DNA from: a virus
Taxonomy: Duplodnaviria; Caudoviricetes
DNA length: 51,986 nucleotides
Reading direction: 5' to 3' (one strand)
Virus record (IMG/VR): IMGVR_UViG_3300036766_001779
Span: 1 to 51,986 of that record
Numbering within the stretch: the stretch's first letter is position 1; each line of letters opens with the position of its first letter. Of the stretch, positions 2,491-51,986 are shown piece by piece. The position numbers were made by a program, and so were the translations under genes. The notes under the pieces are model-generated. The model worked only from the letters and a program-made list of their open reading frames with translations, searched no databases and had not been told where the DNA came from.

Positions 2491-2613
2491 GTGGAGTTGT
2501 GAAGTATTTTACCAAAACGGCGGTTTAGAATCGACTCAAAAATTTGCTGAAAAATTGACTTTTTTGTGGACTTATTCAAAAACGCGATTTAGTAAAAAAC
2601 TACACAACTCCAC
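2491..2613. repeat. Inverted repeat, 22-bp arms (20/22 match), 79-bp spacer
   Basis: gtggagttgtgaagtattttac (2491-2512) vs gtaaaaaactacacaactccac (2592-2613). Confidence 0.8.
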
Positions 2614-2731
2614 ATGTCCACACCGTTTTTTGCGGTTTTTAAATTTGCGAAAAAATCGCTGCTAACTGCCTGATTTTTCCTTAAGTTATAGCCCAAAAAT
2701 CGAGCATGTGGACGGATTGATGAATTAACTG

Positions 2732-2778
<47 letters not shown>

Positions 2779-3214
2779 AGCTGTTTTTTGTGTGCATGAA
2801 AAATGATGAGTTCTCTCAACCGCTTTGAGAAAAGCTCTATAGCCCTTTTAAAAAATTCCCCGACAACTGTCACATGCATTTCCTTTTTTTGTTTGTGCTA
2901 CTTTCGTGTATCGAAATCGTGATGTTCTTGTTGAAAATTCACCAGCTCTTTTTTTCCTAATGGCTTTGTGCACATTTGTTTTTCTTCTAATGGTTTTGCA
3001 TTGCTCATTTTTCTGCACGCCGAGCGAGATGATTATTTTTATTTTGTCAATTTTATTCTTCGTTTGGACCTAAAACTGTTTTCGCCGCACGAGAGATTTG
3101 TGTAGCTGGAGTCATTTTGAAAATTGTACATTTATTTTAGGTTTTTACGAAGCCTGTGTGTACGGGCTCGTGCTAACGTAAAGTTTACACAGCTACACAG
3201 TAAGGAGACACACA

Positions 3215-40259: not shown

Positions 40260-41042
40260 TTACTTCGACAACTTGTGAACTTTGTGAACCTTGTGAACCT
40301 TTCGAGACGTAAATCCTTCGAGACGGCCTTTATCTCCTTGCAGTGGGCCGTCACCTTTTCCGAATGCCTCCTTCACTTTGCTGTAGTTGAGAGGCAGATA
40401 TCCGGGCTCAATTGGGAACACCCCACCACGGTCTTTTGCCTCCAGTTCCAACTCGGGCCTGTATCTGAGAATGCGCCGTTGTGGGCTTTCAGGGTCAAAA
40501 TCGCAAAAGCCAATCACGTCGACTTCTGCACAGACAACCCTCCAGCAGGACGCACTCATACTCGGGATAGTTTTTTCGTACGTGATTCCACGTGCTTTTA
40601 CTTCCCGTTGTTTGTAGTGGCAGATGAGCACTTTGCCGGCCGGAAGATGCAGCAATTTCAGCAAGCCCGAGTGAAACTCTTGATTGAGTGCATCCCAGCC
40701 CTTGCCGTGCGATTCGTCGGAAACGTGGTCAACGCCTTTTTTCTTGCTGACATATTCCAAGCACATTTTGTACAGCAAGTCGATTGTATCAATCACAATC
40801 GTTTTGTATTTCAAAGGTTTCATTGCGACCAGCTCCGTCACAACTTTTAGATATGTTTCCCAGTTCGGAATATCGCAGCGATAAATTTTCAAATGGCGCT
40901 GGGACGTTTCCGTGCAGAGAAACAACACATCGGGAAAGTTGGATGCAAAAGTGCTTTTGCCAATTCCCGGCTGCCCGTAAATCAGCCAAGAACAAGTCTC
41001 CATTTGCATCACACCATCAGTTTGTTTCGACGGTAAAAGCAT
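40260..41042 (-). CDS. AAA_24/Sak4-like ATPase
   Basis: LIYGQPGIGKST, TIVIDT, GKGW, LICH, AKDR. Confidence 0.85.
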   Translation of the reverse strand: MLLPSKQTDGVMQMETCSWLIYGQPGIGKSTFASNFPDVLFLCTETSQRHLKIYRCDIPNWETYLKVVTELVAMKPLKYKTIVIDTIDLLYKMCLEYVSKKKGVDHVSDESHGKGWDALNQEFHSGLLKLLHLPAGKVLICHYKQREVKARGITYEKTIPSMSASCWRVVCAEVDVIGFCDFDPESPQRRILRYRPELELEAKDRGGVFPIEPGYLPLNYSKVKEAFGKGDGPLQGDKGRLEGFTSRKVHKVHKVHKLSK

Positions 41043-41054
41043 GACAGACTCCTC

Positions 41055-41975
41055 TTATACGAGTTCGGGATGGCGTTCTTTTCTCACATGAAAGTTCGCC
41101 ATAGTTGTCGGTGTTTGGCCGTGCGCACAGAATGAAAGAAATGGACAGCCCATGTAACCAGTGCATTCTTTGTCATTCTGAATCCACAGACTAGCCTTTC
41201 TGCACACGTTTATTTGGTCTGCAACAGCTCTATAAATCACAGGCACGAGTTTGACGTCTGCTGCACGTTTGTAAAGAACTGTTGTGTAGAGATACTTTGT
41301 GGCCTCTTGCTCAATTTTCTGCTCCATTTCGAGATTGAAGGCCGCAAGGGATTGCTTTTGTTTCTGGCGTATGCCGGGCTTTCCGAGTACGTTGTAGAGA
41401 CTGCCAGCAATTTTTTGTCCTGTGATTTCCTCCATTGCGTAAATGTAATCGGTTGTTTGCCAATCGACATAAAGGCGTTCAATGTAGTCAGGTCCAATGT
41501 TACTTGCAGATTTGTGCTCGAGAAGCCATAGTTTTTTGTCTTTTTTTGTGCAAAGACCGTCACATTTTCCGAGCATAGTTAGTGTGTTGTCAATTTCGAG
41601 TTCAAACTGCAGTTCAACTGCAGGCTCCTTATCGTATGTCCAAATTTTGATATTTTTGAGCAGACCACGATGGTCATTCCAAGCATTAATCAGTCCGACT
41701 ATAACGACTGAATCCTTCTCGAATGAATCAAGGTCTTCGCCGATGAGCTGTATGCGAGATTTTTTGATGTGCTTATCGATACTGTTCTGAACTTCTTCAA
41801 GCGGCTGTCCTCCAAGCAGCATTGCAAGTGCTTGATGGATTATGTTGCCAATTACGAGCGAACTTCCAGTGCTGTTGGGTGTCAGCTGGCATTCATAGCC
41901 GTAGTAATATTTGCGTTGACATGTAAGGAAGTCTCTTTTTGCGGAATACGTCAGCGTTAATTTCTTCGAATTCAC
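41055..41975 (-). CDS. PD-(D/E)XK exonuclease (RecB/Cas4-like)
   Basis: TYS...CQRKY, GNIIH, GKCD...EHKS, Q...Y, C-terminal C...CPF...C. Confidence 0.85.
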   Translation of the reverse strand: MNSKKLTLTYSAKRDFLTCQRKYYYGYECQLTPNSTGSSLVIGNIIHQALAMLLGGQPLEEVQNSIDKHIKKSRIQLIGEDLDSFEKDSVVIVGLINAWNDHRGLLKNIKIWTYDKEPAVELQFELEIDNTLTMLGKCDGLCTKKDKKLWLLEHKSASNIGPDYIERLYVDWQTTDYIYAMEEITGQKIAGSLYNVLGKPGIRQKQKQSLAAFNLEMEQKIEQEATKYLYTTVLYKRAADVKLVPVIYRAVADQINVCRKASLWIQNDKECTGYMGCPFLSFCAHGQTPTTMANFHVRKERHPELV

Positions 41976-44056: not shown

Positions 44057-44992
44057 TTACGCAGCCAATCGTTTTTCAACCAGCTCGTAAACCTTGTCCA
44101 TCACGTTCAAACTCCGTCCGAAAAACGTGTCTTCAAGACGGCGCAGCTGGGCTTCGTCACTGCCTTTTTTCTCGCCTTTGACTTTTTTCTCGTGCGTCAA
44201 AAATTCGGACACTGCGTTTGTGAGCGACCACCAACTGCCACGAATAACTGGAGCACTATTCTGCTCGTTCTCCAGCAGCGACAGGACGGCGTTTCTGTCG
44301 GATTCAGCTTTGCCAGTCTTTTCTCCTTCGGGCAACGGGTGCACAATATCCAGAACGGCCGTGACGTCCTTCTTCGAATATTTGGTGCCGGCCATTAGCT
44401 GCATACGTTTGCCTGCAGTGCTGTAGTAATCCCGCAACTTGTTATAAACAGTCGACACTGTGTCCAATTTCTCGACAACGTCGCCACGATGACGGACAGT
44501 GAGCGAATAACCCGCAACGTCTGCTGTGCTGCGAAGTAAGCCCATGACCTGATTCGAACAAAACGGATTGAACGGTATGGCTTTCCACTTGCAGGCTCGT
44601 CCTTCGTGATTTGCAGCAAACAACGTAAATGGCAGGATTCGCTCGTTAGAATGCGGGATTGAGAGCGATTTCACTTGTAATTCCGCAATGAGAAACGCAA
44701 TTCCTCCTCTGTGCATCATTCCGCCCGAGCGAAGTTTCATTGACCCATTTTCTACGAGCGGATTCAATTGACCGAACCATTCCTTGTTATCGATAGCCTG
44801 ATAACGGTCTTTTATTGCAGCAAAAAAACGTTCTTGCCCGTCAATACATCCAAAAAGACCGTTAATGTCTGTACGTTCTTTTGTTTCTTCGTTCAGGAGC
44901 CGACGAGTGACGAGCGAATAATCGAGCTGCAATTCCTGCAGCGCTTCAGTCACAGACGGTGTTTCTTTCGCCCATTTAACGAGTGCTACCAT
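44057..44992 (-). CDS. DUF932/DUF945 phage-plasmid protein
   Basis: RYQAIDN..F, ANHEG, FCSNQ, RHRG, RGSWWSLTNAVSEF. Confidence 0.8.
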   Translation of the reverse strand: MVALVKWAKETPSVTEALQELQLDYSLVTRRLLNEETKERTDINGLFGCIDGQERFFAAIKDRYQAIDNKEWFGQLNPLVENGSMKLRSGGMMHRGGIAFLIAELQVKSLSIPHSNERILPFTLFAANHEGRACKWKAIPFNPFCSNQVMGLLRSTADVAGYSLTVRHRGDVVEKLDTVSTVYNKLRDYYSTAGKRMQLMAGTKYSKKDVTAVLDIVHPLPEGEKTGKAESDRNAVLSLLENEQNSAPVIRGSWWSLTNAVSEFLTHEKKVKGEKKGSDEAQLRRLEDTFFGRSLNVMDKVYELVEKRLAA

Positions 44993-45521
44993 GACACTTC
45001 TCCTTTGTCCAAGTATGCCCTTTAACGACTGACTGATTGACAAGTTTCTTCGAGCTGAAACGCAGTATTTCAATCTTGTGAATAATGTTCCAGACGACAT
45101 CCGGGTTTTCCCAGTTATAACGGCTCATTATCCCGCCAAGATAACTCATCGGCAAACCGAAATCCATATATCCTTCTGCAACAATCCAAGCATAGTGTGC
45201 ACTTATGCCAAAACTCGCACGGACGTTCCGTTTCGGTATGAAATAAGTCATTGCAGTACGGCCGTCCTGAAGATTGAGTCGTGTTTTGTGATAATAGTAC
45301 GGGAATCCTTCATAATAGTCCAGTGCTGCTTCGTCCTTGTCCTCAATTTCCCACAGACCACCCCAGATAAAGGCATCATTGTTGCTGCGAACAATCGTGG
45401 CAGGACCGGAAAAGGCCAGAATAGCGTTGTAGATTTTTGCACGACAAAGCGGCTCTGCAGTTCTGCAGCGTTCTGCCATCTGTGTCAAATTCAGATTGGA
45501 GCCGTATGCGAAGTATAGCAT
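44976..45521 (-). CDS. Gamma-glutamylcyclotransferase-like protein
   Basis: LYFAYGSNL...QM..RC...A.IV...LDYYEG.P. Confidence 0.85.
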   Translation of the reverse strand: MLYFAYGSNLNLTQMAERCRTAEPLCRAKIYNAILAFSGPATIVRSNNDAFIWGGLWEIEDKDEAALDYYEGFPYYYHKTRLNLQDGRTAMTYFIPKRNVRASFGISAHYAWIVAEGYMDFGLPMSYLGGIMSRYNWENPDVVWNIIHKIEILRFSSKKLVNQSVVKGHTWTKEKCHGSTR

Positions 45522-45534
45522 TGAAATTCTCCAA

Positions 45535-45563
45535 AGAAAAAAGAAGGGGCAAAATGCCCCTTC
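45535..45563 (-). terminator. Rho-independent terminator
   Basis: gaaggggc-atttt-gccccttc then ttttttcttt on the - strand. Confidence 0.75.
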
Positions 45564-45586
45564 CGTGCTATCCGCTTCTGATTGTT

Positions 45587-45784
45587 CTACGCTTCTGCCG
45601 GCTTGTAAATATTCAGACCGAGCTTGAATCCGCCTTCCAGCGTCACATTGCCGCAGGTGCTGGCAACTTGAAGATTTTTGCCTGAACCTGTCTTGCCAAA
45701 CGACTTCGTGGAATCGACGGTAATGATAATTTTGCCGCCCTTTTGCTCCACACTCACATTGTTGCCTACAGTGACTACTGCCAT
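45587..45784 (-). CDS. Conserved small beta-rich protein
   Basis: FGKTGSGKNLQVASTCGN...KLGLNIYK family motif; AAGGAG RBS. Confidence 0.7.
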   Translation of the reverse strand: MAVVTVGNNVSVEQKGGKIIITVDSTKSFGKTGSGKNLQVASTCGNVTLEGGFKLGLNIYKPAEA

Positions 45785-45845
45785 GACTTATTCTCCTTTC
45801 GCTAACGGTTTTGGCCAGATTCATCTGACCATTTCAACTTCGTTT

Positions 45846-48089: not shown

Positions 48090-48611
48090 CTAAAACAGGG
48101 CACATTCAAATTTTGTTGTGACCAGCAATTTATGCTCGATTGTTTTCGCTGCATGTTTGTCTTTCAAGCCTTGAGCTACACGCAGCAGTTTTACAATGAT
48201 TATATCGTCTAACGGTAACGAAACAATATGCATTCTGTTCGAAAATTGACCGACTCGAATGCCTGCTGCAGTAGCTGACCCGTTATATTTGTACGGCAGT
48301 TCTCGAGCTAGCGCTGCGCCCGCACGACACGACAAGAAAAAACTGATTTCATAGACGGGCTTGCTTGAATCCGCAGTGGACTTCATCAGTAATTTTTTGT
48401 CTACTAAGTGCTGCAAAAACTGCTCGTGCGAAATTTCATCAGCTGACAATCCCAACTGTTCCTGCACTCTTTGCTTGTATTGAGTAGTATTTTTCACACG
48501 TTTGTCGGTGCAGCGGACAGCCAAAATTCGGACGATGTCGTACGCCGTTCGGCCGACCAAATCACACTTTGTTACACAGTCAAGAAATCGCAACATGTTT
48601 TTCTCCTTCAT
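48090..48611 (-). CDS. Hypothetical protein
   Basis: Open frame coupled to the amidoligase stop; start may be 48596. Confidence 0.55.
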   Translation of the reverse strand: MKEKNMLRFLDCVTKCDLVGRTAYDIVRILAVRCTDKRVKNTTQYKQRVQEQLGLSADEISHEQFLQHLVDKKLLMKSTADSSKPVYEISFFLSCRAGAALARELPYKYNGSATAAGIRVGQFSNRMHIVSLPLDDIIIVKLLRVAQGLKDKHAAKTIEHKLLVTTKFECALF

Positions 48612-49570
48612 TATGCGTTTGTTGATGTACGAACGACGGTCACACTAGCATCGTTCGAAATCGGAATTGGAGTCTGCACTGCAGGAGCCGTTACGTTGTG
48701 GGTCGCAGGACGGAAGCTCGGAACACCGGCCGGATTCAGCTCTCGTTGCCGTTTGTCAAACCACGCTTGCAGCTCTTTGTCCATACGAGTGAAGTATTTG
48801 AAATAGTATTTCAGGTCGTAGTTGATTTTGCCCTGTGGCATTTTGGACGCAATGGCGACGGACACAAAATTGACCATTAGACGGATGTAGTTCGTAATTT
48901 TGTCTCCATCTATCGAGCCCTGATGGCCTCTGAATTCCACAGTGCCGTACGTGTACTGGGGCTCGATGTTCATTTTGTAGTAACGGCCTCTCGGGCAGAA
49001 TTCACGGAAAAACTGGTCAACCGAATGGCTGTGCTCAGACATGTGCATGGCGTTCGTGAGTTTTTGCTCGAGAGTTGCAGTGCCAGTTCCAATGGCGTTT
49101 AGATTGGACTCGGCGTACCGTTGGGCACCACGGCGGGATTCGGAAAAAATCGTTTCCATCAGAGGCTCGAACTGCAGCCAACGTAGATATACACGGCGGA
49201 GCTGCTTGAGATTCATCATTCCAGTTCCGACATGCACGTGCAGGCCACAGGTCTTGTCCACTTTTCCGCCGGCCGTTTCGATGGCCTTGCAGACCTTCAT
49301 CACTTCGACAAGCCCTTCGGTCCCGCGCAGAATTGGGCTGACCATCTCGAGGCCACAGCCACATTCAGTTCCGGTTGAATTGACGGAACGGTCGACGCAG
49401 AGATTCCAAATTCCGTGAACACGATTGCCGTGATACGTGCCCGTCCAATGGCATGCCAAGTTGACATTTACCATCTGAGCCAGAACGGCGTTTGGTGTGG
49501 TGCCGAAGAATTCGATTTCGATTCCGTACGTCAGGTCCCGTATTCCAGTGATTGGCTTAATCTGCGGCAT
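48611..49570 (-). CDS. Amidoligase_2 (COOH-NH2 ligase) family protein
   Basis: TYGIEIEF, W...VD.S, EMVSPIL, CGLHVHVG, RY..MN, TVEFR; AAGGAG RBS. Confidence 0.85.
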   Translation of the reverse strand: MPQIKPITGIRDLTYGIEIEFFGTTPNAVLAQMVNVNLACHWTGTYHGNRVHGIWNLCVDRSVNSTGTECGCGLEMVSPILRGTEGLVEVMKVCKAIETAGGKVDKTCGLHVHVGTGMMNLKQLRRVYLRWLQFEPLMETIFSESRRGAQRYAESNLNAIGTGTATLEQKLTNAMHMSEHSHSVDQFFREFCPRGRYYKMNIEPQYTYGTVEFRGHQGSIDGDKITNYIRLMVNFVSVAIASKMPQGKINYDLKYYFKYFTRMDKELQAWFDKRQRELNPAGVPSFRPATHNVTAPAVQTPIPISNDASVTVVRTSTNA

Positions 49571-49614
49571 TTTTAAACTCCTTAATTTTAAACTATCAAT
49601 TATCAACTGTGTAC

Positions 49615-49709
49615 ACTATACTGCCAAACGATGGCATATGTCCACACAGCAGGCCGCGAAAAAATAAAATATTTGTGTGGCTATAACTACGTGTAAATAC
49701 ACGACGTTA
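49615..49709 (-). promoter_or_regulatory. Early promoter with upstream palindromic operator
   Basis: TGGACA-18-TATAGT; palindrome at 49682-49709; same architecture as 47107-47200. Confidence 0.6.
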
Positions 49710-49720
49710 CGTGCACGTGC

Positions 49721-50125
49721 TTATAATTTGTCCAAAATTTTTTGGATTTCGTTTGGCCGAATTTTGCCGTTTTCAGCCTTTACGACGGTCATACGGTCTG
49801 GACGACCACGGCCCAAGCATGTTGGCCGTATGCCTCCACTTTGAAGGTCCTTTATGCACGGACGGCACATAAACAGCAGGCTGTTGTCCGCAGCAATTAC
49901 GGGCATCAAGATTGTTTTCCTGCTGCAGACTGGGCATTGCTTCGGAAGTACGGACGAGTCCTGTAGTAGGTCCCTCAAAGCCTGCATAATCCGGCATTGG
50001 CTTTTAGATGGGCTTGCTATTTTCCGCAGCCGGCGAAGGGCCGCCATCCAGCGTGGACGGCCCGTTGCATAATATCGTTTTTGGCGATATTTCTCCTGCA
50101 ACTTTTTACTCCGTTTAATCTTCAT
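49721..50125 (-). CDS. Hypothetical basic protein with CxxC pairs
   Basis: CPVC...CRPC; GGAGG RBS. Confidence 0.55.
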   Translation of the reverse strand: MKIKRSKKLQEKYRQKRYYATGRPRWMAALRRLRKIASPSKSQCRIMQALRDLLQDSSVLPKQCPVCSRKTILMPVIAADNSLLFMCRPCIKDLQSGGIRPTCLGRGRPDRMTVVKAENGKIRPNEIQKILDKL

Positions 50126-50399
50126 CTTCGGCCTCCAGCCTATTCAGTTCATCCTGTTCCGCCTTTTTTGCAGCGACCTGCTTGAGAAAAACCCGTTTGT
50201 GGCCTTCGATAACGTAGTTTGTGTCCTTGATTTGTTGCCACTCGAAAGAACTCACCCGCACAGTTCGTTTTAGTTGCGTAGCAACATCACGATAAATTAT
50301 CACGACGAGAAATGGCTTGCGATTGAGAAATCGCTCGTCAACATAAATGTTTATGTTGTGCTCATCATCATGGTAGGATTTTGTTGTGTCGTTTCCCAT
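50115..50399 (-). CDS. Hypothetical protein
   Basis: AAGGAG RBS; tightly packed. Confidence 0.6.
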   Translation of the reverse strand: MGNDTTKSYHDDEHNINIYVDERFLNRKPFLVVIIYRDVATQLKRTVRVSSFEWQQIKDTNYVIEGHKRVFLKQVAAKKAEQDELNRLEAEDED

Positions 50400-50400
50400 T

Positions 50401-50781
50401 TTAGTTCTCCTTTGCTGCGTTGAGCTTGTCCTTCAACTGTCTCCACGCTCTGGCCTTCGTGCAGAATTCTTCGAACTGCTTATACAACAAGGATACACTG
50501 GCCTTTTTGTTCGCCTTGATGAAGGCAATCTGCAAGGCTAATTCATCCGCTTGCTCCATATAGACCGTGTTGGCAATCGCAGTCATTTCTTCAAACCAAA
50601 TTTTCTGATTAAAATTATTTTCTCTGTGTCGCACAATCCACTCAACTTCGCAAAATGTCAACGCAACAGAATCTTCGGAGCGAATTGTGCCAAAATGCCA
50701 CTTGTCATTTTCTTTTTTGAAACGTTGATGTTTTGGTGGCTCAGGAATTAGCTTGCTTATGTCCATGTCAGGCTCCTTCAA
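50401..50781 (-). CDS. Hypothetical protein
   Basis: Open frame; probable ATG ~50766 after AAGGAG. Confidence 0.55.
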   Translation of the reverse strand: MKEPDMDISKLIPEPPKHQRFKKENDKWHFGTIRSEDSVALTFCEVEWIVRHRENNFNQKIWFEEMTAIANTVYMEQADELALQIAFIKANKKASVSLLYKQFEEFCTKARAWRQLKDKLNAAKEN

Positions 50782-50783
50782 TG

Positions 50784-51104
50784 TTAGTGCTGTTTGAATT
50801 CATCGCCCTTGAAGTGATTCAGAAAGAAGTAAATGGCACCGTCAGGCGTAGCAAAAGGCTTGCGCTGATGGAGCCGGCCTTTTGAATCCCTGTACGTCAA
50901 CGTGTAACACCAGCCTGGGAAGTCGGCCAAGTTATAATTTGGGTCGAGCTTTTCCAGCTTGACTTGGCAGTAAACTTCGAACGGTTTCGATGGCTTTCCG
51001 AATCTTGCAAGCCGAGCTATTTTCACGAGCTGGGCGTTCAGCGCTTTGTTGTAGTTACTGCCAATTCTTTTGCGGCCTGCTGTTGAAATGTTATGAACGG
51101 CCAT
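50784..51104 (-). CDS. Hypothetical protein
   Basis: ATG after GGAGG. Confidence 0.55.
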   Translation of the reverse strand: MAVHNISTAGRKRIGSNYNKALNAQLVKIARLARFGKPSKPFEVYCQVKLEKLDPNYNLADFPGWCYTLTYRDSKGRLHQRKPFATPDGAIYFFLNHFKGDEFKQH

Positions 51105-51567
51105 TGCATCTGCCTCCACCGGTTTTATGTTCTTCGTCCTCCTTGAGGAGCATCGTCGGACCTTCACAGCAGGAATGTGCCCGCTCGACACAACGCCTGC
51201 AAATCAGTTGGCCGTTCACGAGCGTGAGCTGCTCCATAGGAGTCGGCTGATTACACTGCGAGCATAGGGCAATATCATTCTTTTGTACGCTCATGGTTTT
51301 TCTTCTTTCTGTTGAGTCTGCGGTTTCAATCCACGCTCCCGCGCGGGGAGCGACACCCGCAAGGCGGGCATCGCTGATGATGGAACTCAGACGAGAATAG
51401 CTGCGTTCCGTGTTTGAAATGAGATTCCGTGAGACGAACTGATAATACAATTGACGCAAGGTCAAATTGAAGCCCTGCTGCCTGTATTCTCGCGCGATTT
51501 TTTCCGCAGTGTTGATTGTCGCCAACGCTTTGCTGCGGAAATGCTTTTTTCTGTACTCAGTTTTCAT
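51091..51567 (-). CDS. Chimeric ORF: winged-helix-like N-terminus + translated CRISPR repeat + Cys-rich C-terminus (possible separate start at 51294)
   Basis: LTLRQLYYQFVSRNLISNTERSY.RL..I.DARLAG ends exactly at the repeat (VAPRAGAWIET); then CSQC...CRRC. Confidence 0.55.
   Translation of the reverse strand: MKTEYRKKHFRSKALATINTAEKIAREYRQQGFNLTLRQLYYQFVSRNLISNTERSYSRLSSIISDARLAGVAPRAGAWIETADSTERRKTMSVQKNDIALCSQCNQPTPMEQLTLVNGQLICRRCVERAHSCCEGPTMLLKEDEEHKTGGGRCNGRS
51323..51354 (-). CRISPR. Solitary type I-C CRISPR repeat unit (no array, no cas operon)
   Basis: GTCGCTCCCCGCGCGGGAGCGTGGATTGAAAC: 32 nt, CGCTCCC/GGGAGCG stem, ATTGAAAC 3' end; no second copy seen. Confidence 0.85.
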
Positions 51568-51580
51568 AGCCCCTGTCCTC

Positions 51581-51859
51581 CTATTCCAAGTGTAAATCCT
51601 TCTTCAATTTCTGAATGACTATCATCGCCACATCGGCTTCCTCCAGTTCCCCACGAGACAGGCGGCATTTCGGGCAGTCGCAGGGATACTTTTTCAACGT
51701 TGCGTACATACGGCCTTGTACGAGTTGCTGCACAATTTCCGTTGCGACATTCAGATAAGAACAGAAGTCGCCAAAATTGTGGCCAACAACTGCGTTCTGT
51801 GCGCTGTCGTAATGGCCTTCGTACAAGAACCAGCCGACTGTTAGAATCTCGCTGTGTGT
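51581..51859 (-). CDS. 3' part of the junction-spanning hypothetical protein (starts at 321)
   Basis: In frame with 321->1 once the 127-bp overlap is removed. Confidence 0.75.
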   Translation of the reverse strand, partial: THSEILTVGWFLYEGHYDSAQNAVVGHNFGDFCSYLNVATEIVQQLVQGRMYATLKKYPCDCPKCRLSRGELEEADVAMIVIQKLKKDLHLE

Positions 51860-51986
51860 TTCTCCGCCGTGTTTGACCACCTTCATCGCAGCAGACTCTG
51901 TGATTACGAACGTCCTTTCGAAGGCTTGGACGACCAAAAACACGAGTTCTGCTCCTGAGGGATGGGGAAAATGAGCTATTTTCAGG
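51860..51986. repeat. Terminal direct repeat, second copy
   Basis: Exact copy of 1-127. Confidence 0.95.

What the first reader, a model, noticed from the sequence alone, without database searches (positions are those of the whole stretch)
51323..51354. Solitary type I-C CRISPR repeat in the early region: candidate RNA anti-CRISPR or Cas5d-sensing switch
Seen: a single 32-nt GTCGCTCCCCGCGCGGGAGCGTGGATTGAAAC on the transcribed (-) strand, with an intact 7-bp stem and ATTGAAAC handle. There is no second repeat at spacer distance and no cas operon. A small hairpin (cccgc-ctt-gcggg, 51356-51368) lies just 5' of it. Established: this matches the type I-C repeat consensus processed by Cas5d, and solitary repeat units in mobile elements can act as RNA anti-CRISPRs (Racr). 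Inference: host Cas5d would cut this mRNA and leave an RNA beginning with the handle 28 nt before the ATG at 51294. That RNA could be a Cascade decoy, or the cut could control translation of the downstream Cys-rich ORF only when the host has I-C CRISPR.
Basis: partly seen in the sequence, partly recalled or inferred. Interest (0 to 1): 0.8.

Follow-up and report, generated by a model that had tools for sequence, protein, structure and literature searches.

The report
Lone CRISPR repeat capping truncated gene
A phage carries one perfect copy of a bacterial type I-C CRISPR repeat exactly where one of its own genes has been cut short, so it looks like a recombination scar that may also act as an already known kind of RNA decoy against CRISPR immunity.

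Summary
One exact 32-nt type I-C repeat lies at 51323-51354 (-), with no second full or partial copy and no cas genes in this complete 52-kb phage record. The same 32-mer builds true arrays in 115 bacterial stretches and is very abundant in the sample that holds the phage.

The repeat is not in a leader. It lies inside a 158-aa ORF, exactly at the point where a conserved ~300-aa phage gene (phrog_6247) is truncated after codon 71. The other ~225 codons are absent from the genome. A relative in another metagenome matches the downstream flank up to the repeat's last base and then differs.

Best reading (0.5): a host repeat captured at a deletion junction by exchange with an I-C array. It is read-through transcribed and therefore a Cas5d substrate, i.e. 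a young solitary repeat unit of the Racr kind. That kind is known (RacrIC1, PMC10651486).

Rivals: neutral scar, one-guide cassette against siblings, Cas5d switch, assembly artefact, Cracr. I could not recover the ancestral state or a PAM.

This scan has noted lone I-C repeats joined to native phage DNA before, on other genomes. Interest is moderate.

The parts
51323..51354 (-). Complete solitary type I-C CRISPR repeat, 32 of 32 identical to array repeats
   Evidence: single copy. (115 array-bearing stretches). (Cas5d next to such arrays). (no partial second copy).
51355..51567 (-). Stump (codons 1-71) of a conserved ~300-aa phage gene, phrog_6247 'DNA topoisomerase'. Ends ...SIISDARLAG at the base before the repeat.
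   Evidence: E 5e-21, profile positions 2-88 of 303; full-length homologues continue ARLAG-x-IDW...DRTR..; aa 1-71 score 103.2 bits, the whole ORF 105.0, and aa 72-158 give no hit; the C-terminal part is absent from the window; 3682 relatives of 278 aa or more.
51349..51375 (-). Predicted 12-bp RNA hairpin AGCGAUGCCCGC-CUU-GCGGGUGUCGCU.
   Evidence: forcing the canonical repeat stem instead costs 7 kcal/mol in a 152-nt context. Not diagnostic, because real array repeats fold no better in the same test.
51288..51322 (-). 35 nt of native phage DNA in the 'spacer position' after the repeat. Includes the purine-rich stretch and the ATG of the Cys-rich ORF.
   Evidence: a relative's 151-nt contig in run X3 matches 51220-51323 (13 differences) and then runs on for 47 nt that do not fit. 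No match elsewhere. No cas-promoter seed match.
51091..51294 (-). 67-aa Cys-rich (CxxC...CxxC) ORF of unknown function, in frame with the stump through the repeat
   Evidence: only sub-threshold zinc-finger-type Pfam hits; no homologues; the Atlas gave only unnamed clusters.
51091..51567 (-). Fused 158-aa ORF: stump, then the repeat read as VAPRAGAWIET, then a linker, then the Cys-rich ORF
   Evidence: the only protein at E <= 1e-30 is the ORF itself. P0002 is a translated CRISPR array that repeats VAPRAGAWIET.

Best explanation
The 32-mer is a genuine, complete type I-C CRISPR repeat that this phage captured from a host-type array. No integrase was found in the phage.

It marks a deletion junction. 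Codons 1-71 of a conserved ~300-codon gene run straight into the repeat's first base. The remaining ~225 codons are gone. Native phage DNA resumes at the repeat's last base.

The exact borders on both sides point to exchange with an array. Possible routes are spacer/protospacer recombination or an integrase-type joint at the repeat border, perhaps aided by the phage's own Sak4-like annealing protein and exonuclease. Random illegitimate joining is a poorer fit.

The repeat has no promoter or terminator of its own and is transcribed by read-through within the leftward gene block. In a I-C host its RNA would be bound and cut by Cas5d. It would then behave as a solitary repeat unit of the Racr kind, a decoy that competes with crRNAs for Cas proteins. 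It is probably young and unrefined.

Shown: identity, solitariness, position at the truncation point, and absence of the rest of the gene.

Inferred: the route of capture, transcription, Cas5d processing and any anti-CRISPR effect.
For: - The exact 32-mer occurs once and builds arrays in 115 bacterial stretches. Cas5d is present in 5 of 5 tested carrier genomes.
- Homology to phrog_6247 ends at codon 71, the codon before the repeat. aa 1-71 score 103.2 bits, the whole ORF scores 105.0, and aa 72-158 give no hit.
- 15 of 16 IMG/VR homologue loci have open frames that continue for ~220 more residues.
- All 120 listed longer relatives are 285-344 aa, out of 3682 at E <= 1e-10.
- tblastn of 5 full-length homologues finds only the N-terminal part in the window.
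- In run X1, Logan contigs at depth 26.4 and 25.4 run 29 and 27 nt into the repeat from either side, with no break at the flank/repeat borders. Summed depth over the repeat bin is about 3900, so arrays with this repeat abound in the same sample.
- A relative in run X3 matches 51220-51323 and then differs.
- The record ends in a 127-bp direct repeat. I read this, from recall, as a k=127 circular assembly whose junctions are read-supported.
- The phage encodes a Sak4-like annealing protein and a PD-(D/E)XK exonuclease.
- A I-C Racr co-transcribed with a protein gene is experimentally established, as is dose-dependent inhibition by any repeat-bearing RNA (PMC10651486, passages read).
- The same 32-mer is solitary in 3 other unrelated viral contexts.
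Against: - No relative carrying the same unit was found, so there is no evidence of conservation.
- There is no promoter-like or terminator-like site on the - strand in 50700-51986. The other viral copies look more like small-RNA genes: L005 has a terminator-like hairpin 39 nt after the repeat, and L002 has a promoter-like site upstream.
- The unit lies inside an ORF, which the published SRU search treats as probable false-positive space.
- The upstream flank has no TTC at the 33-37-nt offsets expected of a I-C protospacer. TTC occurs only at 28 and 40 nt (read; spacer lengths). This argues against a simple double crossover through two spacers.
- None of 1597 spacers from arrays with this repeat matches the phage.
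- No contig bridges the repeat in the independent Logan assembly.
- The host is unknown.
Confidence: 0.5

Rival explanations
1. Neutral scar. The origin is the same (exchange with a host I-C array that deleted most of the gene, perhaps selected once because the deletion removed a targeted protospacer), but the repeat has no present function and will decay.
For: - It lies inside an ORF with no promoter or terminator of its own.
- It is unique to this genome.
- Perfect identity to the array repeat fits recent capture.
- A conserved gene was destroyed in the process.
Against: - A perfect repeat on an expressed strand, in a community full of the cognate system, can hardly avoid Cas5d (inference).
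- Repeat-bearing RNAs inhibit in a dose-dependent way (PMC10651486).
- The repeat-bearing form is the only one seen at ~26x depth. Contigs drop rare variants, though.
Confidence: 0.3
2. One-guide cassette against siblings. The repeat replaced the PAM of a protospacer, so repeat plus native flank (51288-51322) yields a crRNA-like guide. Host I-C Cascade/Cas3 would use it against sibling phages that keep the intact locus, while the carrier, lacking the PAM, is immune.
For: - Native phage DNA starts exactly at the repeat's 3' border. The X3 relative aligns one base into the repeat (a C on the - strand), as TTC would require. The chance of that is 1 in 4.
- Earlier notes of this scan describe lone I-C repeats joined at sibling PAMs in other phages (unchecked AI notes).
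Against: - No second repeat or terminator defines a 3' end.
- No target was found. The 24-mer of the flank gave 0 hits in metagenome contigs. The 23-nt pattern with every sixth base free gave 0 hits in viral contigs.
- The relative's letters before the flank were not shown, so the PAM is unverified.
Confidence: 0.12
3. Cas5d-sensing switch. Cleavage in the repeat controls translation of the Cys-rich ORF according to whether the host has I-C.
For: - The repeat lies 28 nt before the ATG at 51294, in the same message.
- Without a cut the message encodes a 158-aa fusion. With a cut the two halves are separated (inference).
Against: - The arrangement arose by truncating a gene, not as a leader.
- No relatives show it.
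- A cut gives a non-stop stump message, and a Cas7 backbone on the handle-led RNA would cover the start codon (inference).
- The Cys-rich ORF has no known function.
Confidence: 0.05
4. Assembly artefact. Either a phage-borne mini-array collapsed to one repeat, or two phage pieces were wrongly joined through host-array k-mers.
For: - No Logan contig bridges the repeat. One ends at 51351 and the next starts at 51328.
- Arrays with the same repeat are about 150 times deeper than the phage in that sample.
Against: - Both flanks enter the repeat without a branch, at equal depth (26.4 and 25.4).
- The two Logan contigs (48603 and 3295 bp) add up to the record's unique length. Their other joint is a (GA)19 run.
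- The 127-bp terminal repeat suggests a k=127 assembly, far longer than the 32-nt repeat (inference).
- All 5 viral records that hold this 32-mer (the 4 and this window) carry it once and away from their ends.
Confidence: 0.05
5. Cracr-type regulator. The repeat plus flank guides host Cascade to a cas or toxin promoter.
For: A single repeat-like unit plus a spacer-like sequence is the described anatomy (bioRxiv 10.1101/2024.10.29.618823, passages read).
Against: - In 115 array loci (711,806 nt) no TTC is followed by 9 or more nt of the flank. The best case is one TTC plus 8 nt, in L106. By my arithmetic about 0.3 such cases are expected by chance.
- No terminator follows on the - strand.
- The flank is the phage's own ribosome-binding region and start codon.
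Confidence: 0.03

Closest known systems
Viral solitary repeat units / RNA anti-CRISPRs, especially RacrIC1 (Camara-Wilpert et al. 2023, PMC10651486; abstract, section 9 and passages read)
   Same: - One full-length copy of a host-type repeat in a virus.
- No neighbouring repeat and no cas genes.
- Type I-C.
- RacrIC1 is also co-transcribed with a protein gene.
   Different: - This one lies inside an ORF at a gene truncation point. The published search masked ORFs.
- No promoter within 250 nt by a sigma-70 scan.
- No recognisable acr neighbour.
- No activity data.
Virus-borne mini-CRISPR arrays used against related viruses (Medvedeva et al. 2019; seen only as described in review PMC11656645 and in a reference list)
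   Same: Host-identical repeat in a cas-less virus. The sequence after the repeat is virus-derived.
   Different: Only one repeat. The 'spacer' is the carrier's own contiguous DNA. No target was found.
Cracr RNAs (bioRxiv 10.1101/2024.10.29.618823; passages read)
   Same: A single repeat-like unit followed by a spacer-like stretch in a phage. I-C examples are reported.
   Different: No seed match to cas promoters in 115 loci. No terminator. The repeat here is perfect, not degenerate.
Recombination between phages and CRISPR loci through spacer/protospacer homology (Varble et al. 2019; recalled, not read, title words seen only in the listing) and prophage integration into CRISPR repeats (Varble et al. 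2021; seen as reference 17 and as a preprint abstract)
   Same: A physical exchange between a phage genome and a CRISPR array leaves array sequence in the phage.
   Different: - Here the product is a free phage genome with exactly one repeat replacing part of a gene.
- No integrase was found.
- The upstream flank lacks a canonical PAM offset.

Membership tests
Type I-C CRISPR repeat | Sequence occurs as the repeat of real arrays next to cas5d (I-C signature gene) | tested here: met
   The exact 32-mer is in arrays with a ~66-nt period, 115 stretches. Cas5d (PF09704) is present in 5 of 5 carrier genomes tested. In one complete chromosome it lies ~5 kb from the array.
Type I-C CRISPR repeat | GC-rich hairpin followed by an ...ATTGAAAC 3' handle (features recalled from the literature) | tested here: met
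   7-bp stem, 5-nt loop, -13.0 kcal/mol for the repeat alone. The handle is read directly from the sequence.
Rfam CRISPR-DR families | Score at or above the family's gathering threshold | tested here: not met
   Best is CRISPR-DR9 at 21.8 bits against 45. No match at gathering level in the whole window.
Solitary repeat unit (SRU) / Racr candidate | Full-length match to a known repeat, with no full or partial repeat within 100 bp | tested here: met
Solitary repeat unit (SRU) / Racr candidate | Not associated with cas genes | tested here: met
   No Cas5d, Cas1 or Cas7 match in the complete record.
Solitary repeat unit (SRU) / Racr candidate | Intergenic location (the search space of SRUFinder) | tested here: not met
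   Inside the 158-aa ORF 51091-51567. The upstream 71 codons are a real gene remnant.
Solitary repeat unit (SRU) / Racr candidate | Promoter within 250 bp upstream, or proven co-transcription | tested here: inconclusive
   No sigma-70-like site on the - strand in 50700-51986. The host's promoter type is unknown. Read-through from the leftward block is likely. No RNA data.
Solitary repeat unit (SRU) / Racr candidate | Host carries the matching CRISPR-Cas subtype | not testable with these tools
   Host unknown. Arrays with the same repeat are abundant in the sample that holds the phage.
Solitary repeat unit (SRU) / Racr candidate | Inhibits CRISPR interference when expressed | not testable with these tools
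   Needs a bench assay.
Mini-CRISPR array / guide cassette | Spacer flanked by two repeats, matching a related virus next to a PAM | tested here: not met
   No second repeat. No target found. The sibling's PAM was not visible.
Cracr RNA | At least 9-10 PAM-proximal nt matching a cas or creT promoter | tested here: not met
   None in 115 array loci. The true host's locus is unknown.
phrog_6247-like ~300-aa phage protein ('DNA topoisomerase' by PHROGs annotation) | Full-length protein with the C-terminal ...HLGDHDPSG.DMTRD... part | tested here: not met
   Only residues 1-71 are present. The rest is absent from the window. Two full-length homologues have no Pfam family.

The most novel reading that the evidence does not exclude
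The unit is a protein-free competition or homing cassette born in one step. Exchange with a host I-C array, possibly an integrase-type joint exactly at the repeat borders followed by repeat-repeat or spacer-protospacer recombination, deleted a targeted segment of the phage. It also replaced the PAM of the adjacent protospacer with a repeat. The survivor is now immune at that site. From its early operon it also makes a handle-led guide (51288-51322) that turns the host's Cascade/Cas3 against sibling phages that still carry the intact gene.
Probability: 0.12. Interest if true: 0.8.

Novelty: new member of a known kind. Interest (0 to 1): 0.45.

Why it matters
Solitary CRISPR repeats in viruses are an established anti-CRISPR device. 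The Racr paper does not discuss how they arise: a word search of its main text found 'recombination' 0 times and 'origin' once, a passage shown that concerns a plasmid replication origin.

This locus is a clean natural snapshot. A perfect host repeat sits with base-exact borders at the point where a conserved phage gene was cut off, in a community rich in the cognate I-C system. That suggests such units can be born as by-products of phage-array exchange, and perhaps of escape by deletion, and refined later.

It also shows a blind spot. Searches that mask ORFs, as SRUFinder does, would miss repeats that end up in frame inside fused ORFs.

Tried and rejected
ANCESTRAL STATE AND SIBLINGS (nothing found)
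- blastn of 49000-51986 against the phage collection: no match.
- Relatives of the 135-aa and 120-aa neighbouring ORFs in viral contigs: none.
- Relatives of the Cys-rich ORF in metagenome contigs: none.
- Protein homologues of the Cys-rich ORF (only 36-118 aa searched): none.
- Protein homologues of the 106-aa ORF: itself only.
- Closest full-length relatives of the stump reach only 69% identity.
- No shared neighbours in the 16 homologue loci or the 4 SRU loci.

SPACERS AND TARGETS (nothing found)
- 1597 spacers from the fetched arrays: best matches are 15 nt or less, at chance level.
- Flank 24-mer in metagenome contigs: 0 hits.
- Flank pattern with every sixth base free in viral contigs: 0 hits.
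- Downstream flanks of the other three viral copies found only themselves.

RNA FOLDING
- One search had an index error (all zeros) and was redone.
- The canonical stem has probability 0.024 in context, but 306 real array repeats have a median of 0.012. Thermodynamic folding says nothing about processing.

APPARENT HOMOLOGY BEYOND THE REPEAT
- PHROGs aligned the ORF to residue 88, and tblastn with L121 extended to residue 156.
- I reject this as real homology. The profile gains only 1.8 bits beyond residue 71, and the matching W is encoded by the repeat itself.

OTHER REJECTED IDEAS
- The 306-aa ORF at 41055-41975 is not a paralogue of the stump's gene. It is an exonuclease.
- attP-in-repeat model: no tyrosine or serine recombinase found.
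- Atlas search of the Cys-rich ORF gave unnamed clusters only.

SEQUENCING RUNS
- No RNA holder was listed.
- Runs X2 and X3 gave no contig over 51355-51986 or 50000-50835. At 2-5x depth this blank is no finding.

LITERATURE
- Faure et al. 2019 is not held.
- Supplementary tables of the Racr paper were not seen. They may already list this record or this repeat.
Full report
WHAT IS THERE

The window is a complete virus record of 51,986 bp with a 127-bp direct terminal repeat. On the - strand at 51354 to 51323 lies GTCGCTCCCCGCGCGGGAGCGTGGATTGAAAC.
- It is the only copy at up to 3 mismatches. None of 100 shuffles gave a match.
- A local alignment of the repeat against 200 nt on each side scores no better than shuffled flanks. 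The repeat is truly solitary.
- Pfam models of Cas5d, Cas1 and Cas7 find nothing in the record.
- Tyrosine and serine recombinase models also find nothing.

IS IT A TYPE I-C REPEAT?

An exact-match scan of one genome per prokaryotic species found the 32-mer in 115 stretches. Most are arrays with a period of about 66 nt and up to 86 copies in one stretch. They come from records labelled Nitrospirae, Deltaproteobacteria, Brocadia and other Planctomycetes, Acidobacteria, Firmicutes, Alphaproteobacteria, Bacteroidales and others.

From all 115 stretches (L006-L120) I extracted 1597 spacers, mostly 33-36 nt. Five carrier genomes were tested and all five encode Cas5d. In the complete chromosome among them Cas5d lies about 5 kb from the array.

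Rfam gives only a sub-threshold hit: CRISPR-DR9, 21.8 bits against a gathering score of 45.

The I-C assignment stands. The host hint is weak because the same repeat is spread over many phyla.

The repeat lies inside a 158-aa ORF, 51091-51567 (-). Residues 1-88 of that ORF match PHROG 6247, annotated 'DNA topoisomerase', at profile positions 2-88 of 303, E 5e-21.

Evidence that the gene is normally ~300 aa:
- Sixteen IMG/VR loci encode relatives, 42-63% identical over the best segment.
- In 15 of the 16 the frame stays open for about 220 more residues...SIISDARLAG-x-IDW-xx-I-x-DRTR..., later ...HLGDHDPSG.DMTRD.... The sixteenth, L133, has an in-frame TAG at the conserved Trp codon.
- A search restricted to longer proteins found 3682 relatives of 278 aa or more at E <= 1e-10. 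All 120 listed are 285-344 aa, and the best is 69% identical.

Evidence that the window copy is truncated at the repeat:
- In the window the sequence reads ...SIISDARLAG and then the repeat, translated as VAPRAGAWIET.
- A profile built from 13 of the 16 homologues scores residues 1-71 at 103.2 bits and the whole ORF at 105.0. I left out L128 and L129, which are identical to L127, and the interrupted L133. Residues 72-158 alone give no hit.
- tblastn of five full-length homologues finds nothing of their C-terminal two thirds anywhere in the window.
- The same peptide VAPRAGAWIET recurs in P0002, which is simply a translated CRISPR array.

So a conserved gene is cut off after codon 71, within a conserved motif, and the cut coincides with the repeat's first base. 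The precision is within 2 nt, because the third base of the Gly codon is free.

THE OTHER BORDER

After the repeat come 28 nt and then the ATG of a 67-aa Cys-rich ORF. That ORF has no detectable relatives. It is in frame with the stump.

Three public runs hold parts of this region. I laid their Logan contigs on 49000-51986.

Runs X2 (wetland) and X3 (wastewater) are two studies other than the possible source. They contain pieces 87-95% identical to 49216-49994 and 50836-51323, so relatives of this phage exist there. One 151-nt contig of X3 matches 51220-51323 with 13 differences and then continues for 47 nt that do not fit the window. The relative therefore shares the downstream flank up to the repeat's last base and lacks the repeat there. 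Those 47 letters were not shown. The ancestral sequence, and the presence of a TTC PAM, remain unknown. The only hint is that the alignment includes the one base (C on the - strand) that a TTC would share with the repeat's end.

IS THE JUNCTION REAL?

In run X1, which may be the source sample:
- One Logan contig (48,603 bp, depth 26.4) runs from the downstream side and stops at 51351, 29 nt into the repeat.
- Another (3,295 bp, depth 25.4) starts at 51328, 27 nt into the repeat, and runs upstream.
- Neither breaks at the flank/repeat border, so in that population both flanks continue only into a repeat.
- No contig bridges the repeat. That is expected at k=31, because the repeat bin has a summed depth near 3900, which means abundant arrays with the same repeat in the same sample.
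- The two contigs add up to the record's unique length. Their second joint falls in a (GA)19 run at 2738-2776.
- The 127-bp terminal repeat looks like the signature of a k=127 circular assembly (my recollection of assembler behaviour). Such an assembly would not collapse a mini-array or jump through a 32-nt repeat.

I put an artefact at about 5%. Only raw reads can settle it.

HOW DID IT GET THERE?

A complete repeat with base-exact borders, replacing at least ~680 bp of a gene, is what an exchange with a CRISPR array would leave. Random illegitimate joining would not be expected to give such borders.

The simplest version is a double crossover through two adjacent spacers. The upstream flank weakens that version: reading the - strand, TTC occurs 28 and 40 nt before the repeat but not at the 33-37-nt offsets that hold 95% of the 1597 spacers.

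Alternatives that need only one spacer homology, or none, are conceivable. One is joining of a processed phage DNA end to the repeat border by the adaptation integrase, followed by recombination. These are inference only.

Two further observations:
- The phage has the tools for short-homology exchange: a Sak4-like annealing protein (40260-41042) and a PD-(D/E)XK exonuclease (41055-41975).
- None of the 1597 spacers matches the phage.

WHAT DOES IT DO NOW?

The repeat lies in sense orientation about 3 kb into the leftward gene block. That block starts at the divergent region near 2500-3200. No promoter-like or terminator-like site lies on the - strand in 50700-51986, so transcription would be by read-through.

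Predicted RNA structure does not help. The minimum-energy fold pairs the stump's last codons with the first 6 nt of the repeat in a 12-bp hairpin. The canonical stem has probability 0.024 in context. But 306 true array repeats have a median of 0.012 in the same test.

By analogy with published work, a perfect repeat on an abundant early message in a I-C host would be bound and cut by Cas5d and would compete with crRNAs:
- RacrIC1 is a I-C solitary repeat co-transcribed 11 nt after acrIC5.
- Inhibition by RacrIF1 is dose-dependent, and a non-targeting crRNA also reduced interference (PMC10651486; abstract, section 9 and passages read).

This is my best reading of its present effect, at about even odds against a neutral scar.

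Points that make it look young rather than evolved:
- It sits inside an ORF.
- It has no signals of its own.
- A cut would leave a non-stop stump message.
- No relative carries it.

By contrast, other solitary copies of the same 32-mer in viral contigs are intergenic and antisense to the neighbouring ORFs. There are four records in three unrelated contexts. L005 has a terminator-like hairpin 39 nt after the repeat. L002 has a promoter-like site about 190 nt upstream.

OTHER READINGS

- A guide against siblings (repeat plus native flank) fits the exact 3' border. It echoes earlier unchecked notes of this scan on other phages. But I found no target and could not see the sibling's PAM.
- A Cracr-type regulator is not supported. 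No TTC plus 9 or more nt of the flank occurs in 115 array loci (711,806 nt), and no terminator follows.

COMPARISON AND NOVELTY

The kind is known. The Racr paper reports 2,103 solitary repeat units on viral sequences and validated nine candidates, one of them I-C.

This locus meets the sequence criteria: a full match, solitary, and no cas genes. It fails the 'intergenic' criterion and shows no promoter of its own. That paper's search masked ORFs and treated intragenic hits as probable false positives, so units like this one would be missed.

What is new here is the anatomy of origin: a repeat exactly replacing the end of a conserved gene. I rate it a new member of a known kind, of moderate interest. 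There is a small chance (about 0.12) that it is a one-step, protein-free competition cassette.

Noticed in passing
window 2738-2776: A (GA)19 microsatellite in the divergent intergenic region between the leftward and rightward gene blocks. The independent Logan assembly breaks there.
   Followed up: partly
L133 4220-4228: In this IMG/VR phage the phrog_6247-like gene has TAG where all relatives have the conserved Trp codon (…GLID*DSIKDRGR…), and the frame continues with good homology. This could be stop-codon recoding or a fresh nonsense mutation.
   Followed up: no
L005 1100-1196 (- strand): Another solitary copy of the same 32-mer is followed 39 nt later by a 10-bp GC-rich terminator-like hairpin with a T-rich tail. 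This is the repeat/spacer-like/terminator anatomy described for Cracr or Racr small RNAs.
   Followed up: partly
L002 1430-1461 and L003 2684-2715; L004 875-906: Solitary exact copies of the same repeat in other viral contigs are intergenic and antisense to the flanking ORFs. L002 and L003, from two metagenomes, share identical flanks.
   Followed up: partly
window 40260-41975 (-): A Sak4-like single-strand annealing protein next to a PD-(D/E)XK (Cas4-like) exonuclease. This is a phage recombination module that could mediate short-homology exchange.
   Followed up: partly
window 51349-51375 (-): The stump's codons for SDARLAG plus the first 6 nt of the repeat form a 12-bp hairpin (two G-U pairs). 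By my rough estimate the six extra pairs beyond the native 6-bp hairpin would arise by chance about 3 times in 1000. It is unexplained whether this palindrome played a part in forming the junction.
   Followed up: partly
protein P0002: A 448-aa 'protein' in the public representative library is a translated I-C CRISPR array in which VAPRAGAWIET recurs. Such false ORFs can mimic homology to any ORF that contains a repeat.
   Followed up: yes
window 44976-45824 and 48611-49606 (-): A gamma-glutamyl cyclotransferase-like gene and an amidoligase (PF12224) gene lie in the leftward block.
   Followed up: no
proteins P0054, P0059, P0065, P0072, P0118, P0145: Several short database members of the phrog_6247-like family diverge or end right after the ARLAG motif, the same place as the break here. 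None shows the repeat peptide. They may be contig ends or frameshifts, or this conserved site may be a recurrent breakpoint.
   Followed up: no
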